Assembly: GCA_963847445.1 (NCBI GenBank)
Contig: CAWJZV010000006.1
Coordinates: 128,001-192,000 of the forward strand
Source: an uncultured delta proteobacterium
GTDB taxonomy: Bacteria; Desulfobacterota; Binatia; UBA9968
Reading direction: 5' to 3'
Length of the DNA stretch: 64,000 nucleotides
Shown: piece after piece, positions 43,378 through 49,064 of the stretch
How the letters are laid out: every line of letters begins with the position of its first letter
How positions within the stretch are numbered: position 1 is the stretch's first letter
Program-made: the position numbers and the translations under genes
Notes under the pieces: model-generated
Database searches by the model: none
What the model saw: only the letters and a program-made list of their open reading frames with translations
Told to the model about the DNA's origin: nothing

Positions 43378-45174
43378 CTAGGGCTGGGTGACGCCCGCAA
43401 ACGTCACCAGGTCCGCCACTGTGAAATCTCCAGCTGCGGCAGATGGCAGAAATGGAGTGAACCCGCCTGTTACGTTCAGGTAAGACGTTGCATCTCGCTT
43501 CAACATGCGGACGAAAGTCTCCGCCACTATCCTGCCACCCACCGGGCCCAGTTCGTTTCCTCCGCCGATCACGGACGCTTCGCGTAAGATGTAGTACCAC
43601 AACGGCGTTTTCTGCAGCAGGATGCCACCGTTAGAATTCAGCAGACTCACCTCCGTCGCTGGGAGCCCCTGGGTCAGTTGCGCTGTTGTCATCGGCGTGA
43701 TCCCGAAGGAATTCGCCATGCCCTTGCCGCTGGGTAGACCTAGCGCCAAGCCACGCCTGAGGTTCCGCGTTGCGAGCACCGCCATCATTCCGGTAAATCC
43801 TGGCAGCGACTCTAACCCCGCCGCCATGAAGCTGTCGATGGTGCGGGCCTTATTGTGAACTGGGACTGGCACACCGGTATCGAATAGGGCGTTGAAGTCC
43901 ACCACCCAATTTGAAAAAACCGGAAGCCGCGGATTGCGGACGAATTCGAACACCTGTCCCAGTGTTGCCGCCGGAAAGTTGAAATTTACAAAGTATGTGT
44001 CCCGGATCATGCTATGGCCGAAGCGGTAGGCGGCCACAGCAAACTCAACGGGCATGCGAAAGGGACTGCCTTGCGGCGCCACTACCGTTGAAAGAGCGTT
44101 GGTCACCGTCGCTGCGCCACAAATTCGCTTGAGGAAATCGTTCACCACGGCCCACTGATAGTGATGTGTCACGATCTTTTTAGCCTCGGCGAAGATATCA
44201 CCGGCGAACGAAGCCGCTAGTAGCAGTTCCACGACTTTGTTATGAAACCTCAACATGGCGTGGTGGAATTGCGCGATGATCAGGTTTTCGTCATTGCGCG
44301 GATCTCCGATCACGGCTGTGTTCGTCCCCCCAATGCGTGGCACGTCGAATTGGGATTGCGTTACCATTCCGCCAGGAGTCCCGTTGTTGCTCGGTCCGCC
44401 CGGCCCGGTATTTGTGTTCGTCCCGAGCTGGAACTTCACTGCGGTCGTCGGACCCGTGGAAGGGAATGCATAGAGAAACGGATCGAGCGCCGGTCCCCTC
44501 CCATACACGGAATCGAGATCAAGTGTCGGAGTACGCATATTGTGGATCGTGTTCGCATCCGTGGCGCTATCAAGCGACGACGAGACATCCAGGGTAATGT
44601 CATGGTCCACGAATTGGCCGAAATATGTGTAACCCGCCGGGATGGACGACACGCCCTGATCCGCCGAATTATGCGATCCCGGATTCGGATCGCGGCCCGG
44701 ATCGCCCATCAACCCACCCAGTTGGCCCAATAACGACTGATTCACTGCGTTGAAGGCCAACTTGGTCGCGCTCCTAACCGCAGCGCTCGACATGTAGCCA
44801 AACCTCTCGGCGCACGGCGAGGCGAGCCACGGAAACGGAAACCACGTCAGCGATATCTTACTGCCATGCAATCTCCGCTGCTCCGGCTTCATCGCTCGCA
44901 GACTACTTTTGATTTCTTCCGGCATTTTCGCCACAGACTGTCCGGCGTCCGGCTTGATGCGATTCACCGTTTCCACAAGTCGCTCCACTGGAACGCTGGG
45001 TCTCAGATTCAGCTCCGCAAGCCGCTCCCGTAGCTGACGGACGGAAACCGGAGCTGGATTTGCAAACCTTCTCGGAGCCGCCGTTTCTTTGAGCAGCGCC
45101 AACAACCTTGCAGGAATCGCAGGGGTCTCTTTCGGGGAACTACTCTCCTTGGTCCGCGTTTTTTTTGTGGCCAT
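43378..45174 (-). CDS. Heme peroxidase (peroxidase-cyclooxygenase / animal-type superfamily)
   Basis: YTYFGQFVDHDIT (distal His), LDLDSVYG, GDPRNDEN, AAYRFGHSM (proximal His), GLPSG, PLWYYIL.E, LGPVGGRIVAE; AAGGAG SD. Confidence 0.92.
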   Translation of the reverse strand: MATKKTRTKESSSPKETPAIPARLLALLKETAAPRRFANPAPVSVRQLRERLAELNLRPSVPVERLVETVNRIKPDAGQSVAKMPEEIKSSLRAMKPEQRRLHGSKISLTWFPFPWLASPCAERFGYMSSAAVRSATKLAFNAVNQSLLGQLGGLMGDPGRDPNPGSHNSADQGVSSIPAGYTYFGQFVDHDITLDVSSSLDSATDANTIHNMRTPTLDLDSVYGRGPALDPFLYAFPSTGPTTAVKFQLGTNTNTGPGGPSNNGTPGGMVTQSQFDVPRIGGTNTAVIGDPRNDENLIIAQFHHAMLRFHNKVVELLLAASFAGDIFAEAKKIVTHHYQWAVVNDFLKRICGAATVTNALSTVVAPQGSPFRMPVEFAVAAYRFGHSMIRDTYFVNFNFPAATLGQVFEFVRNPRLPVFSNWVVDFNALFDTGVPVPVHNKARTIDSFMAAGLESLPGFTGMMAVLATRNLRRGLALGLPSGKGMANSFGITPMTTAQLTQGLPATEVSLLNSNGGILLQKTPLWYYILREASVIGGGNELGPVGGRIVAETFVRMLKRDATSYLNVTGGFTPFLPSAAAGDFTVADLVTFAGVTQP

Positions 45175-45930
45175 AGGATCTCCTTGTTTTGTTATGGTCG
45201 AGGTTAAGCTCGAAGCGACAACATAATTGTAATTGAGTTAGGCTTTGACGAATTAACAGAAGTAGTGAAGCGCTCGAAGCGCGACCTTAAGCTGTTCCCG
45301 AGCTACGCCAACAGCGTTAGACGGGGTTCGTTTAGAGTTGGCATTGATCAATTCTCTACTTTAGTTTGATGGGAATGCTTATAACAAGCCCGCATGATTT
45401 TTCAGCTGAGACTTTACGCCCCGGTGTTCACTAGTCCGACATGTCGCAACTATTGATAGACTGTTTTCAATAAATAACACCGCATCCGTGGTCCTTTCTC
45501 AAGTCACTCCGGATAAAATGTTACCTCAGTACTGCGTTAGCGCAAGTATAGTGCCATTGAATTTCAATCGTATCTTTGCGGAAAACACAAAAGTACCCAA
45601 CTCGATTTGCCTGTGACGTTTAGCGCTCGTCTACTAAGTTTACAAACCTTCTACGCGTCGTTTACAAAACTGTCGCCAAAGTTTACGCGTCGTTGCGCTC
45701 TACCGCTCGCGTCTCAATAAAGTAGTCAAAACTTGGGGCATTTAAAGTCTACCATCGGAATTCTCGGCGCGGCGCCCGACGCACTGGGTAACCGTTGATT
45801 TTGTGCGCGAAGCTTTTGCACCGCTGATCAAGCGCGTCGGCGGGGTCAAGTCCCGCCTATGTAACCTTCTTGATTCGGCGGCCGTCGATCGATCTCGACT
45901 GAAATAATCATTTGTGATAGGGGGTTGAAA

Positions 45931-46260
45931 ATGCGAGTAGAGAGGCGAATTGTTTTCTTTGCGGCCTTATCCATGCTGCCGATTGCTTTCGGCTGCCAAA
46001 CCATGCGCGGCGAAACCGCGGTGGCAATACCCGCGGTGGAAACGGAAACGCCGCAAGATCAGGCGTTGTCAAAGTCCGTACGGGCACGCCTGCTTGCGGA
46101 TAAGAAAGTGAATCTATCCGGCATCAAGGTGGTATCCAACAACGGGACAGTTTATCTGAGCGGAGTCGTGAGTTCTCTAGATGCACGCCAGCAAGCGATC
46201 AAGCTCGCCTGGGAAACGCGCGGTGTGCAGAGCGTCGTCAACAGTCTTGAAGTTCAATAA
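45931..46260 (+). CDS. BON-domain lipoprotein (OsmY-like)
   Basis: Lipobox AFGC; D..L...VRARL, GTVYLSGVV, GVQSVVNSL. Confidence 0.88.
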   Translation: MRVERRIVFFAALSMLPIAFGCQTMRGETAVAIPAVETETPQDQALSKSVRARLLADKKVNLSGIKVVSNNGTVYLSGVVSSLDARQQAIKLAWETRGVQSVVNSLEVQ

Positions 46261-46450
46261 ATTCCTGAAGCGAAAGTCGCGAGTCTGATTGCTCGTAAGA
46301 AAGCCGGGACAGGCTCTTTCAATCTAGACAAATCTGGGTCGGATTCTTTAACCGTTCCAACTCTCCGAATAAACTACTCGCTTGTATCATCCGGGCTCAT
46401 GGTCACAGTCTGTTCTACGCCCTTGGGGATTTTCCAGATGGTTTCATTTT

Positions 46451-46465
46451 GCGTCGCCCGGACGC
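46451..46465 (-). promoter_or_regulatory. Candidate bacterial SECIS hairpin for selO
   Basis: Minus strand GCGTC-CGGGC-GACGC; 19 nt between the in-frame TGA and the loop; followed by A's, so not an intrinsic terminator. Confidence 0.55.
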
Positions 46466-46470
46466 GTCAC

Positions 46471-47955
46471 TCAGGTGCCTCAGAAGGTTTGGTAGCGCTC
46501 TCGCCCTTCCGGTGCAGGTTCGGCATAGGCGGCAGACTCGAGCTGGTCGTCGAAAGGGCGCGATAGGATTTTCAGCAGCGTTTCGAAGGGCGCGTAATCG
46601 GCGCGTTGCACTGCGGCGCTCAACGCCTCCTCGACGCGATGATTGCGCGCGATGAACTTAGGATTGGCCCGCCGCATGGCTTGCGCGCGCTCCACGGGTG
46701 CCAGCGACTCGGGCTCAAGCCGCGCCCGCCACTGTCCACTCCAGAGATCATAGGCCGACGGATCGGCAAACAGCGCGCGAATCTTTTCTTCCTCGCCTAG
46801 GGCCGCGTCGGCGAGGTAGCGGAACGCCAACGTGTAGTCGACCTTGTTGCTCTCTAGGACGGTAAGAAATCCATTGACAAGATTGAGATCGGCCTCGTCT
46901 TCACTGACCAGTCCGAGCTTGGCGCCCATGCCTTGAAGCCAGTGGCGTTTATATAAATCTGGAAAGCCATTGACCACCTCGCTGGCTTGCGCGATGGCGC
47001 GTTTACTGTCGGCATCGATCAGCGGTAGCAGCGTCTCCGCCAGCCGCGCCAGGTTCCACTGCGCGATGCTTGGTTGATTGGCGTAGGCATAGCGACCGCG
47101 GGTGTCGATGGAGCTGAAGACCGTCGCCGGATCATAATGATCCATGAAGGCGCATGGCCCATAGTCGATGGTCTCACCGGAGATCGCCATGTTGTCGGTG
47201 TTCATCACGCCATGGATGAAGCCGACATGCATCCAGCTCGCGATCAGCGCGGCTTGCCTGTCGCTGACGCTCGCAAGCAACTCAAGGTACGGATTCGCTT
47301 GGTCCTTTAATTCCGGATAATGGCGCGCGATCACGTAATCAGCCAGGCGACGCACTTTGTCCTGCTCACCGCGGGCGGCGAACAACTGGAAAGTGCCGAC
47401 ACGGATGTGGCTCGCAGCGACGCGCGTCAATACCGCGCCTGGCAACGCGGTTTCGCGATATATGGGCTCGCCTGTGATTACCGCGGCAAGCGCACGGGTG
47501 GTCGGAATACTTAGCGCGTGCATGGCTTCGCCGAGCAAATATTCACGCAAAACGGGACCGAGTGCGGCGCGGCCGTCGCCATTGCGCGAAAAGGGAGTGG
47601 GACCCGACCCTTTGAGCTGAATGTCGCGGCGCCGGCCCTGGCGGTCGATGACTTCTCCTAGAAGCAGCGCCCGGCCGTCACCAAGTTGCGGCGAGAAGCC
47701 GCCGAACTGGTGGCCGGCGTAGGCCTGAGCCAGGGGCAGCGCGCCCTCGGGTGTCTCATTGCCGGCAAAAATCCGCGCGCCTGCCTCGGAATCGAGAGCA
47801 TCGGCATCCAGCCCCAATTCCTCGGCCAACTCATAGTTGAGCTTTACCAACTCAGGCCGCGCTACCTGCGCCGCTTTCCACGGCACGTAGAAGCCCTCAA
47901 GTTCGCGCGCATAGGTATTGTCGAAGGTGAATGGTCCGGCGGCGACGTGCATCAT
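46471..47955 (-). CDS. selO: Protein adenylyltransferase SelO (YdiU), predicted selenocysteine at TGA 46480-46482 (ends YQTF-U-GT-stop)
   Basis: YAGHQFG, QLGDGRA, QLKGSG.TPFSR.GDGRA, GFIHGVMNTDN, IDYGPC, RNH; TTC TGA GGC ACC TGA matches the usual ...TFCGT C-terminus. Confidence 0.93.
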
Positions 47956-48278: not shown

Positions 48279-49064
48279 TCAACCCTTCGGCGGGGTTGCC
48301 ACTAACGCGCTGCGAATCTCTTTGAGTTTTGCCTTTACTGAGGCAGCATTTTCGCCGCCCATGCGCACGAGGATTTTCTGCCCCGCCGACAGTTTCTCCA
48401 GATTCGCATCGGCGAACTGGTAAAGTACGCTGGTCTGGGTAAGCAGCACGGGATCTTTCACTTCGGGTGCCGCCAGCAGATGGTCGATCACTTGGACCAC
48501 TCGGTCGTTGAAGTACTTGCCCGGATATCCGAGCTTCTCGTACTGTTCCTGGAACAGCGGGTAAAACCTTGCGTATATCGACACCAGCGGCGCAACCGGC
48601 ACCGATTTCGCGACGCCCACATAAGGCTGGTAGCGCGCCGCGTTCTTCGGGCTGAGGCGCAGCTCCTCGCCCTTGCCCGTCGTGATTAGCCAGCCAGGCA
48701 AGGATTTCATCGGCAGTATCTGCGCTGGCAAGTGTTCCAGGGGCAAATTGTCGACGGTGGCGACGACGCGGTGAATGATCCCCTGCAGATTGAAAAACTT
48801 TTGCAGATCCCGACCGAACAGTTTCGCCAGCGCGTCTTGCATCGCCTTGTCGCTATCGGCCAGCGCCGGCAACGGTTCGTCAGACCCCTGCGCTTGACCG
48901 GTCGCCTCGATCGGATAGCGGATCGCCGGTTCCTCTGGCGCAGAAACCGTTGGCGGTTGCGCCATCTGCGGTGCCGGTGTCTCGCTCGCGCGCCAAAGGT
49001 ACAGGGCAACGGCGCCGCCGACTACAACCGCCAACAGAATCAACCACTGGAAGGTTTTATTCAT
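48279..49064 (-). CDS. DUF3014-domain membrane-anchored protein
   Basis: N-terminal TM; LPALADSD, RYQPYV, YPLFQEQY..LGYP, FNDR, LSAGQKILVRMG. Confidence 0.85.
   Translation of the reverse strand: MNKTFQWLILLAVVVGGAVALYLWRASETPAPQMAQPPTVSAPEEPAIRYPIEATGQAQGSDEPLPALADSDKAMQDALAKLFGRDLQKFFNLQGIIHRVVATVDNLPLEHLPAQILPMKSLPGWLITTGKGEELRLSPKNAARYQPYVGVAKSVPVAPLVSIYARFYPLFQEQYEKLGYPGKYFNDRVVQVIDHLLAAPEVKDPVLLTQTSVLYQFADANLEKLSAGQKILVRMGGENAASVKAKLKEIRSALVATPPKG

What the first reader, a model, noticed from the sequence alone, without database searches (positions are those of the whole stretch)
46451..46500. Bacterial SelO that appears to encode selenocysteine (UGA plus SECIS-like hairpin)
Seen: the ORF track stops SelO at YQTF, but the minus strand reads TAC CAA ACC TTC TGA GGC ACC TGA, i.e. 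Y-Q-T-F-[TGA]-G-T-stop. After 19 nt comes the loop of a GCGUC-CGGGC-GACGC hairpin with G as the second loop base, followed by A's rather than a U-tract. Established: many bacterial YdiU/SelO proteins end in ...TFCGT, vertebrate SELENOO has Sec at its C-terminal redox position, bacterial SelO is generally regarded as Cys-containing, and bacterial SECIS elements lie just 3' of the UGA. Inference: this is a Sec-containing AMPylase with a selenium-based redox switch. Here the SECIS-like hairpin falls in the 3' UTR because the true stop is three codons after the UGA, and without selenium the product would lose its last three residues.
Basis: partly seen in the sequence, partly recalled or inferred. 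Interest (0 to 1): 0.85.

Follow-up and report, generated by a model that had tools for sequence, protein, structure and literature searches.

The report
Selenocysteine-encoding SelO gene in Binatia
This soil bacterium's SelO enzyme gene very probably encodes selenocysteine three residues before its end, directed by a small RNA hairpin just past the stop codon; bacterial SelO selenoproteins were first predicted in print in 2025, so this is a well-supported new example, not a new kind.

Summary
On the minus strand SelO (Pfam PF02696, E 2.4e-120) reads ...Y-Q-T-F-TGA-GGC-ACC-TGA. A GCGUC-CGGGC-GACGC hairpin follows, with its loop starting 19 nt after the first UGA.

The selenocysteine (Sec) reading is strongly supported by comparison:
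- 45 of 123 genomes of the same order carry SelO: 25 with TGA-GGN-ACN-TGA, 19 with TGC, 1 undetermined.
- After the UGA only third codon positions vary.
- 24 of 25 TGA forms keep the 17-nt hairpin with at most 2 mismatches at a fixed offset. Cys forms show 2-10 mismatches and outgroups 7-10.
- The hairpin's 11-nt top, GUCCGGGCGAC, is identical to the element after the Sec-UGA of selD in this genome.
- fdhA here also has a Sec-UGA followed by a hairpin.
- selA and selB occur across the order, and tRNA-Sec in 5 of 5 relatives checked.

Weak points:
- In this assembly selB and selA are frame-broken. The assembly is indel-ridden genome-wide, and one run's contigs lack all four selB insertions.
- No full tRNA-Sec gene is assembled.
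- The hairpin is not thermodynamically unusual and shows no covariation.
- There is no protein evidence.

Bacterial Sec-SelO was predicted in 2025 (deep-Sep), so this is a new member of a known kind, in a Binatia-labelled lineage.

The parts
46474..47955 (-). selO coding sequence read with UGA = Sec: 494 residues, protein adenylyltransferase SelO/YdiU
   Evidence: ORF to 46480; PF02696 E 2.4e-120, residues 11-463; E 1e-105 to E. coli YdiU/SelO structures, aligned through the C-terminal Cys
46480..46482 (-). in-frame UGA, proposed Sec492; aligns with Cys476 of E. coli SelO and with TGC in 19 order orthologs
46474..46479 (-). GGC ACC = Gly493-Thr494, translated only if the UGA is decoded
   Evidence: across 25 aligned sequences, first and second codon positions are invariant and only third positions vary (GGC/GGT/GGG; ACC/ACT/ACA)
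46471..46473 (-). true stop codon TGA
   Evidence: TGA in 25 of 25 Sec forms. A 1-nt deletion in the spacer of G014 shows there is no frame constraint beyond it
46466..46470 (-). variable 5-nt spacer (GUGAC) between the stop and the hairpin
   Evidence: these columns vary freely, apart from the near-invariant A and C next to the stem
46451..46465 (-). SECIS-like hairpin in the 3' UTR: GCGUC (46465-46461), loop CGGGC (46460-46456), GACGC (46455-46451)
   Evidence: fold; at most 2 mismatches in 24 of 25 Sec forms, decayed in Cys forms; same GUCCGGGCGAC as the selD element; stem invariant
47152..47154 (-). Cys268 (DYGPC), the only Cys in the protein; candidate partner of Sec492
   Evidence: Cys at this column in 16 of 16 full-length orthologs; it lies 12 residues before the position that aligns with E. 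coli Cys272, which is Phe280 here. The partner role is inference

Best explanation
selO of this Binatia-type bacterium is a genuine selenoprotein gene. The UGA at 46482-46480 is decoded as selenocysteine by SelB carrying Sec-tRNA(Sec). SelB is recruited by a minimal bacterial SECIS hairpin (GCGUC-CGGGC-GACGC). Because only two codons and the stop follow the UGA, this hairpin lies wholly in the 3' untranslated region. The product ends ...YQTF-U-G-T, with Sec at the position of the regulatory C-terminal Cys of E. coli SelO. By analogy, Sec492 forms a reversible selenylsulfide with the single conserved Cys268, next to the DYG motif, and this gates AMPylation activity according to redox state. When Sec insertion fails, a protein three residues shorter and lacking the switch is released. 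Shown here: the Sec/Cys codon pairing, in-frame conservation past the UGA, the hairpin's conservation and its loss in Cys forms, its identity with the selD element, and the presence of the machinery in the lineage. Inferred: actual Se incorporation, SelB binding, and the selenylsulfide switch.
For: (1) Family: PF02696, E 2.4e-120. The UGA aligns with Cys476 of E. coli SelO.

(2) Sec/Cys alternation: of 45 SelO-bearing genomes among 123 in the order, 25 have TGA, 19 have TGC and 1 match is too short to tell. I read all 44 codons myself.

(3) Translation past the UGA: GGN and ACN vary only at third positions in the 25 sequences aligned (24 of the order's 25 Sec forms, G019 left out, plus bin909), while the spacer after the stop varies freely and carries an indel.

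(4) The hairpin is tied to the UGA. The 17-mer has 0 mismatches in 13, 1 in 10 and 2 in 1 of the 25 Sec forms, at a fixed offset. The 25th (G019) has an inserted base. The Cys forms have 2-10 mismatches, and five of them show relics with at most 5 mismatches at the same offset. Outgroups have 7-10.

(5) Internal positive controls. selD here has UGA at the known Sec/Cys site, followed by GGUC-CGGGC-GACC whose loop starts 16 nt after the UGA. It shares the 11-mer GUCCGGGCGAC with selO. That element recurs in selD of G004, G014 and G022. fdhA has ...NQARI-U-HSS... followed by GUCCCC-GGUCU-GGGGAC, with the loop 18 nt after the UGA.

(6) Geometry fits the published 16-37 nt window, and an engineered 3'-UTR bacterial SECIS works in E. 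coli (PMC10778597, passages read).

(7) Machinery: selA, selB and selD lie on contig 14. selA is over its cut-off in 38 of 41 relatives and selB in 36 of 41 (both tallies include the unpublished genome G005). tRNA-Sec scores 74-77 bits in 5 of 5 relatives.

(8) The selB frame breaks look like assembly errors. They are four single-base insertions. Of 176 orthologs evaluated genome-wide, 58 are frame-broken, about 0.44 shifts per kb. The contigs of run X1 lack all four insertions.

(9) The hairpin is not a terminator and matches no Rfam family.
Against: There is no protein or selenium-labelling evidence and no RNA evidence.

In this assembly selB is in five pieces and selA changes frame near its end. 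No complete tRNA-Sec gene is found: the best Rfam score is 45 bits against a gathering score of 47, the aragorn call on C2 looks poor, and blastn finds only a 24-34-nt 3' fragment. The syntenic site lacks the gene.

The X1 contigs differ from G000 by about 3%, so they may come from a near relative. At L011 position 1089 the X3 contig that covers the place is not listed as lacking the base.

The hairpin has only 5 base pairs. Its folding energy is ordinary (z = 0.00). The stem shows no covariation: 4 pairs never vary, one shows U-A to U-G once, and a sixth pair forms in only 8 of 25 sequences. The loop has no U, unlike the classical G-U loops (recalled).

The tree of the C-terminal 166 residues is unresolved, so independent events cannot be counted.
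Confidence: 0.85

Rival explanations
1. In this particular strain the Sec system is defunct: the selB and selA frameshifts are real, and tRNA-Sec was lost when an island inserted at selC. The UGA therefore simply terminates SelO at ...YQTF, and the cassette is an inherited relic.
For: selB is in five frames and selA is frame-shifted. No full tRNA-Sec is in the assembly, and only a 3' fragment lies beside a tyrosine integrase. The X1 contigs are about 3% different and may not be the same strain.
Against: Frame breaks are genome-wide (58 of 176 orthologs). All four selB changes are +1 insertions with 87-99% amino-acid identity on every piece, and all four are absent from the X1 contigs. The selO cassette and the selD and fdhA Sec sites are intact with zero hairpin mismatches. 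The genome is 91.8% complete in 48 contigs, and the island runs to a contig end.
Confidence: 0.07
2. The UGA is an ordinary stop throughout the clade. The downstream GGN-ACN-TGA and the hairpin are a conserved 3' element with another role, such as mRNA stability or protein binding.
For: The ORF is complete without the tail. The hairpin is small and energetically ordinary and shows no covariation.
Against: This does not explain why first and second codon positions of GGN and ACN are invariant while third positions vary. It does not explain why the element decays exactly where TGA became TGC, nor why its top is identical to the element after the selD Sec-UGA. No terminator pattern is found on either strand.
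Confidence: 0.05
3. The UGA is read through, but by a near-cognate or suppressor tRNA (Trp or Cys) rather than by Sec-tRNA(Sec).
For: The conserved in-frame GT codons only show that translation continues, not which residue is inserted.
Against: The position is Cys in all 19 order Cys forms and in 6 outgroup sequences. The hairpin matches the selD element. Among 48 tRNA calls aragorn made only one with a UGA-reading (tca) anticodon, the poor-looking tRNA-SeC on C2, and flagged no suppressor. TGA is also the true stop of the same gene in 25 of 25 Sec forms.
Confidence: 0.02
4. The TGA is a sequencing or assembly error for TGC.
For: The assembly is error-prone.
Against: Its errors are indels. The same TGA is present in 24 other genomes of the order and in 26 same-type SelO records in the public species collection, most labelled Candidatus Binatia or delta proteobacterium.
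Confidence: 0.01

Closest known systems
Selenoprotein O-like protein of Desulfosediminicola ganghwensis IMCC35004 (deep-Sep prediction, mSystems 2025, PMC12013277; listed in the 2026 review PMC13188914)
   Same: It is a bacterial PF02696/COG0397 SelO with a predicted Sec-UGA, Cys-containing homologs and a bSECIS-like structure downstream (passages read). It too is computational only.
   Different: It comes from a different lineage; here the carriers are labelled Candidatus Binatia or delta proteobacterium. I could not see the figures or supplements, so I do not know whether its Sec is at the same C-terminal position or whether its SECIS lies in the UTR. Neither paper's text mentions Binatia (0 occurrences).
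Vertebrate SELENOO
   Same: It belongs to the same enzyme family and has a single Sec close to the C-terminus, at the position that is Cys in other organisms (PMC7278666, section 6 passages).
   Different: The eukaryotic protein has a CXXU motif and a eukaryotic-type SECIS read by SBP2/EFSec (same review; the SECIS type is established knowledge). Here the tail is YQTF-U-GT with no CXXU, and the hairpin is a minimal bacterial type 14 nt after the UGA. All phylum-level outgroups are Cys, so an independent origin inside this bacterial clade is likely.
E. coli SelO/YdiU (Cys form; PDB 6K20, 6III, 9JYM) and P. syringae SelO (6EAC)
   Same: E 1e-105 over residues 13-492. The HGVMNTDNM and DYGP segments are conserved, and the C-terminal Cys476 aligns with the UGA. 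Activity is reported to be regulated by a Cys272-Cys476 disulfide (PMC7278666 citing Sreelatha 2018; I saw only the review).
   Different: The residue aligned with Cys272 is Phe280 here. The only Cys is Cys268, four residues after the Asp of DYG.
[quoted passage not shown]
   Same: The layout is UGA near the end of the ORF, a stop codon, then a bacterial SECIS outside the reading frame. It works with E. coli SelB (PMC10778597).
   Different: That is an artificial construct using the fdhF SECIS. Here the layout is natural and the hairpin resembles this lineage's own selD element.

Membership tests
SelO/YdiU protein adenylyltransferase (PF02696) | Full-length match to the family profile above the curated cut-off | tested here: met
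   402.9 bits against a cut-off of 22.8, profile positions 7-464 of 466
SelO/YdiU protein adenylyltransferase (PF02696) | Conserved catalytic-loop and DYG segments as in solved SelO structures (motif roles recalled, not tested) | tested here: met
   HGVMNTDNM and DYGP align identically with E. coli SelO
SelO/YdiU protein adenylyltransferase (PF02696) | AMPylation activity | not testable with these tools
   Needs an enzyme assay
Bacterial selenoprotein gene (SelB/SECIS-dependent UGA recoding) | In-frame UGA aligned with Cys in homologs, with conservation on both sides | tested here: met
   25 TGA against 19 TGC; flanks Y-x-T-F/Y and G-T conserved
Bacterial selenoprotein gene (SelB/SECIS-dependent UGA recoding) | Stem-loop with its apical loop 16-37 nt after the UGA (window as quoted in PMC10778597); a G early in the loop is the bSECIS model criterion as I recall it | tested here: met
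   the loop starts 19 nt after the UGA and reads CGGGC. bSECISearch itself could not be run
Bacterial selenoprotein gene (SelB/SECIS-dependent UGA recoding) | selA, selB, selD and tRNA-Sec present and intact in the same genome | tested here: inconclusive
   selA, selB and selD are present, but selB and selA are frame-broken in an indel-ridden assembly. No full tRNA-Sec is found. Intact in relatives: selA 38 of 41, selB 36 of 41, tRNA-Sec 5 of 5
Bacterial selenoprotein gene (SelB/SECIS-dependent UGA recoding) | Structure supported by compensatory changes | tested here: not met
   the 5-bp core never varies apart from one U-A to U-G. The sixth pair is C-G in 6, U-A in 2 and unpaired in 17. The shuffle controls are not exceeded
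Bacterial selenoprotein gene (SelB/SECIS-dependent UGA recoding) | Selenium actually incorporated | not testable with these tools
   Needs 75Se labelling or mass spectrometry
Eukaryotic SELENOO | CXXU C-terminal motif and a eukaryotic-type SECIS | tested here: not met
   the tail is R-Y-Q-T-F-U-G-T with no Cys three residues before the U; no Rfam SECIS family matches

The most novel reading that the evidence does not exclude
In Binatia, SelO is a natural, clade-wide Sec/Cys toggle. A minimal SECIS, apparently patterned on the selD element, lies entirely in the 3' UTR. Sec has been replaced by Cys repeatedly, leaving graded SECIS relics. The replacement is accompanied by a second Cys five residues upstream: CYxTFC in 14 of 19 Cys forms, against R or H in 24 of 25 Sec forms. 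This suggests that one selenol is functionally traded for a vicinal dithiol in the redox switch of an AMPylase.
Probability: 0.35. Interest if true: 0.6.

Novelty: new member of a known kind. Interest (0 to 1): 0.45.

Why it matters
SelO is a conserved AMPylating pseudokinase, and the role of its C-terminal Sec is still unclear. A 2020 review still stated that all prokaryotic SelO carry Cys (PMC7278666). The first bacterial Sec forms were predicted only in 2025.

This locus adds a whole soil lineage in which more than half of the SelO genes examined carry Sec. It shows an unusually clean comparative signature: an in-frame tail, a SECIS that decays when Sec becomes Cys, and a SECIS shared with selD. 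It is also a natural case of a bacterial SECIS lying wholly outside the reading frame.

Practically, these genes are annotated three residues short. The Sec/Cys pairs offer material for testing what selenium contributes to the SelO redox switch.

Tried and rejected
Hairpin as an intrinsic terminator: no terminator-like site on either strand in 45800-46700. A's rather than U's follow it on the gene strand.

Known RNA family: Rfam gave only a chance CRISPR-DR25 hit (E 8.8).

Thermodynamic support: none (z = 0.00).

Covariation support: none.

Tree to count and polarise Sec/Cys changes: 166 columns, 48 rows (G019 and G464 left out as too short). It was unresolved: only 1 change is forced by supported branches, although the best tree needs 11.

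aragorn tRNA-SeC at C2:139122-139203: the acceptor stem is poor and the gene is 82 nt long. I treated it as a probable false call.

Loose motif scan GTCCGNGNGRC after in-frame TGA: apart from selO and selD the hits look like noise.

Wider spread: a draw of 400 genomes from the phylum gave 16 other SelO genes, none with TGA.

Reads: X2, X3 and X4 cover selB only in part, and parts without cover say nothing.

Papers: PMC6524645 (Sreelatha 2018) is not held, so what I say about Cys272-Cys476 comes from a review. A search for Binatota plus selenocysteine found one paper, where the word occurs only in the reference list. The supplements and figures of the deep-Sep paper could not be seen. They may already list the Sec position or Binatia homologs.

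Structure prediction was not run, because the tool returns no coordinates from which to measure a Cys268-Sec492 distance.
Full report
**Observation.** The minus strand at 46500-46441 reads ...GAG CGC TAC CAA ACC TTC TGA GGC ACC TGA GTGAC GCGTC CGGGC GACGC AAAA. The mechanical ORF ends at the first TGA (46480..47955, 491 aa...YQTF). Read with TGA = U, the 494-residue product is a full-length SelO (PF02696, 402.9 bits, E 2.4e-120). The first UGA is 46482-46480 and the true stop is 46473-46471. The stem arms are 46465-46461 and 46455-46451, and the loop CGGGC is 46460-46456. The loop begins 19 nt after the UGA, its second base is G, and A's follow.

**Comparative test of the codon.**
- A search of 40 relatives found SelO in 19 of 41 genomes, G000 included, some with '1 TGA' and some with none.
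- Reading the 19 C-termini gave 12 with ...T-F/Y-TGA-GGN-ACN-TGA and 7 with TGC at the same position.
- Across the whole order, 45 of 123 genomes have SelO.
- I fetched the 25 further C-termini. The totals are 25 TGA, 19 TGC and 1 match too short to tell (G480).
- In a draw of 400 genomes from the phylum, 16 others have SelO and none has the TGA. Five of these, plus a paralog in G469, end in ...TFCGT.
- The UGA aligns with Cys476 of E. coli SelO.

**Translation continues past the UGA.** I aligned 25 TGA sequences: 24 of the order's 25 Sec forms (G019 left out because of its extra base) plus a Binatia-type record, bin909, from the collection scan. The first two positions of both post-UGA codons are invariant and only the third positions vary (GGC/GGT/GGG; ACC/ACT/ACA). 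The five bases after the second TGA vary, and G014 lacks one of them. Reading-frame constraint therefore ends at the second TGA.

**The hairpin tracks the UGA.**
- The 17-mer ACGCGTCCGGGCGACGC has 0 mismatches in 13, 1 in 10 and 2 in 1 of the 25 Sec forms, at a fixed offset. The 25th (G019) has an extra base, and its selO reading frame is also split by a frameshift.
- The changes fall in the last loop positions, or give U-G in place of U-A.
- The 19 Cys forms have 2-10 mismatches. G023 (2), G012 and G518 (4), and G024 and G514 (5) keep a recognisable relic at the same offset. The outgroups have 7-10.
- Relics in Cys forms point to Sec-to-Cys replacement. A tree of the last 166 informative residues is too poorly resolved to count events.

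**Internal controls.**
- selD of this genome carries UGA at the known Sec/Cys site (...VKSAG-U-AAKLGPGDL). It is followed by GGUC-CGGGC-GACC, with the loop 16 nt after the UGA.
- The shared 11-mer GTCCGGGCGAC occurs 6 times in 7.19 Mb (about 8.7 expected). Only the selO and selD copies follow an in-frame TGA and have complementary flanks.
- The selD element recurs in G004, G014 (with CGGGU, the variant also seen in the selO hairpin of G015) and G022. G025 has a variant.
- An FdnG-type formate dehydrogenase on contig 34 has ...NQARI-U-HSS... followed by GUCCCC-GGUCU-GGGGAC, with the loop 18 nt after the UGA.
- All three spacings lie in the 16-37 nt range quoted for bacterial SECIS. An engineered 3'-UTR bacterial SECIS is known to work for C-terminal Sec in E. 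coli (PMC10778597, passages read).

**What does not support the structure.** The folding energy is ordinary (-8.3 kcal/mol, z = 0.00, 93 of 200 shuffles at least as good). The five core pairs are essentially invariant, so there is no covariation. No Rfam family matches. The hairpin does not look like a terminator.

**Sec machinery.**
- selA, selB and selD lie together on contig 14.
- In this assembly selB is split into five frame segments by four single-base insertions, relative to both G014 and G004. The pieces are 87-99% identical in protein. selA changes frame near its end.
- As a control I called ORFs of at least 250 aa in 400 kb of G014 and compared them with G000. Of 290 ORFs, 176 passed my filters (best hit at least 65% identical, at least 60% covered). 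Of these, 58 showed frame changes, 88 in all, about 0.44 per kb. The assembly is therefore indel-ridden throughout.
- Contigs of run X1, the best holder of the selO stretch, leave out one base at each of the four places (L011 positions 531, 697, 1089, 1396). X4 does so at 1089. X3 covers 1089 but is not listed as lacking the base. The X1 contigs differ from G000 by about 3%.
- Across relatives, selA is over its cut-off in 38 of 41 and selB in 36 of 41 (G005, flagged unpublished, is included in both tallies).
- tRNA-Sec scores 74-77 bits in 5 of 5 good relatives. In G000 no full gene is found, and the syntenic site lacks it.
- A 24-34-nt 3' fragment lies at C12:77569-77602, directly beside a tyrosine integrase (Arm-DNA-bind_2 plus Phage_integrase), and the contig ends 21 kb further on. 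I infer that an island inserted at selC and that the intact copy fell into an assembly gap. This is not shown.

**Mechanism.** A review reports that E. coli SelO is regulated by a Cys272-Cys476 disulfide, Cys476 being the residue replaced by Sec in higher eukaryotes (PMC7278666, section 6 passages). The primary paper is not held. Here the residue aligned with Cys272 is Phe280. The protein's only Cys, Cys268 in DYGPC, is invariant in 16 of 16 full-length orthologs. A Cys268-Sec492 selenylsulfide switch is therefore a reasonable inference and nothing more.

The residue five positions before the Sec/Cys is R (16), H (8) or C (1) in Sec forms. In Cys forms it is C (14), R (3) or G (2). Shared ancestry may explain part of this pattern.

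**Taxonomy and spread.**
- A scan of the species-genome collection for TAY-MRN-ACN-TWY-TGA-GGN-ACN-TGA gave 47 stretches. Of these, 27 are SelO and 20 are chance matches.
- Twenty-six of the 27 are of the same type with the same hairpin. Most of their records are titled Candidatus Binatia bacterium or uncultured delta proteobacterium. A few carry other labels.
- The 27th is in a MAG titled Reyranella sp. (60% identity, a different hairpin). That genome has selA.
- In its family 113 of 130 genomes have SelO, and 6 show an in-frame TGA. I verified three of them, with U at the same third-from-last position.
- There the hairpin CCUGCUCC-loop-GGAGCGG is also kept in Cys neighbours. In one case it is followed by a U-run, so it may double as a terminator.

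[quoted passage not shown] A 2026 review lists 'Selenoprotein O-like protein PF02696' among prokaryotic selenoproteins (PMC13188914, passages). Neither text mentions Binatia. Figures and supplements were not visible.

The kind is therefore already in print as a prediction. This locus is a new and unusually well-supported member in another lineage. Its added points are the wholly 3'-UTR SECIS, the selD-like hairpin, the relic SECIS in Cys forms and the change at the fifth residue upstream.

**Verdict.** Confidence that this selO type is a true selenoprotein gene is about 0.85. There is a residual doubt of about 0.07 that the system is functional in this particular strain. Interest is moderate (0.45).

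Noticed in passing
G000 genome-wide (for example selB, C14:193251, 193414, 193808, 194117): The assembly carries many single-base indels. Compared with G014, 58 of 176 orthologs evaluated are frame-broken, about 0.44 shifts per kb. Gene calls in this window should be read with that in mind.
   Followed up: yes
G000 C12:77569-77602 (-) and C12:77653-78855 (-) = L158:253-1455: A 24-34-nt 3' fragment of tRNA-Sec lies directly beside a tyrosine integrase (Arm-DNA-bind_2, Phage_integrase). Methylase- and primase-like ORFs run on to the contig end. This is probably an integrative island at selC.
   Followed up: partly
G000 C34:150014-153297 (-), TGA at about C34:152728: An FdnG-type formate dehydrogenase alpha subunit, itself frame-broken in the assembly, has Sec-UGA at ...NQARI-U-HSS and a GUCCCC-GGUCU-GGGGAC hairpin.
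   Followed up: partly
G000 C2:139122-139203: aragorn calls an 82-nt tRNA-SeC(tca) with a weak acceptor stem. It is probably a false positive.
   Followed up: partly
residue 487 of SelO (window 46495-46497, -) across orthologs: The residue five positions before Sec/Cys is R or H in 24 of 25 Sec forms but Cys in 14 of 19 Cys forms (CYxTFC). All 19 Cys forms in the order use TGC. This could be compensation or shared ancestry.
   Followed up: partly
L159, L161, L164 (G522, G629, G608) and rows G590, G569, G626: A second lineage, the family of a Reyranella-labelled MAG, has sporadic Sec-SelO (6 of 113 SelO-bearing genomes). Its hairpin is different and is kept in Cys neighbours too.
   Followed up: partly
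G003:C29:435912-436148 and G004:C9:295149-295385 (L042, L043): In two Cys-form genomes a second, 79-residue copy of the SelO C-terminus (73-76% identical, no stop inside) lies about 3.3 kb from the full gene.
   Followed up: no
window 43378-45174 (-), 45925-46260 (+), 48279-49064 (-): The neighbours of selO are an animal-haem-peroxidase-family protein, a convergent BON-domain protein and a DUF3014 protein, with FAD-dependent oxidoreductases further out. No clear operon link to selO.
   Followed up: no
L112, L113, L144: Some records with the Binatia-type selO and hairpin are titled Candidatus Acidiferrales, Pseudomonadota or Chloroflexota. The labels or the binning are probably inconsistent.
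   Followed up: no
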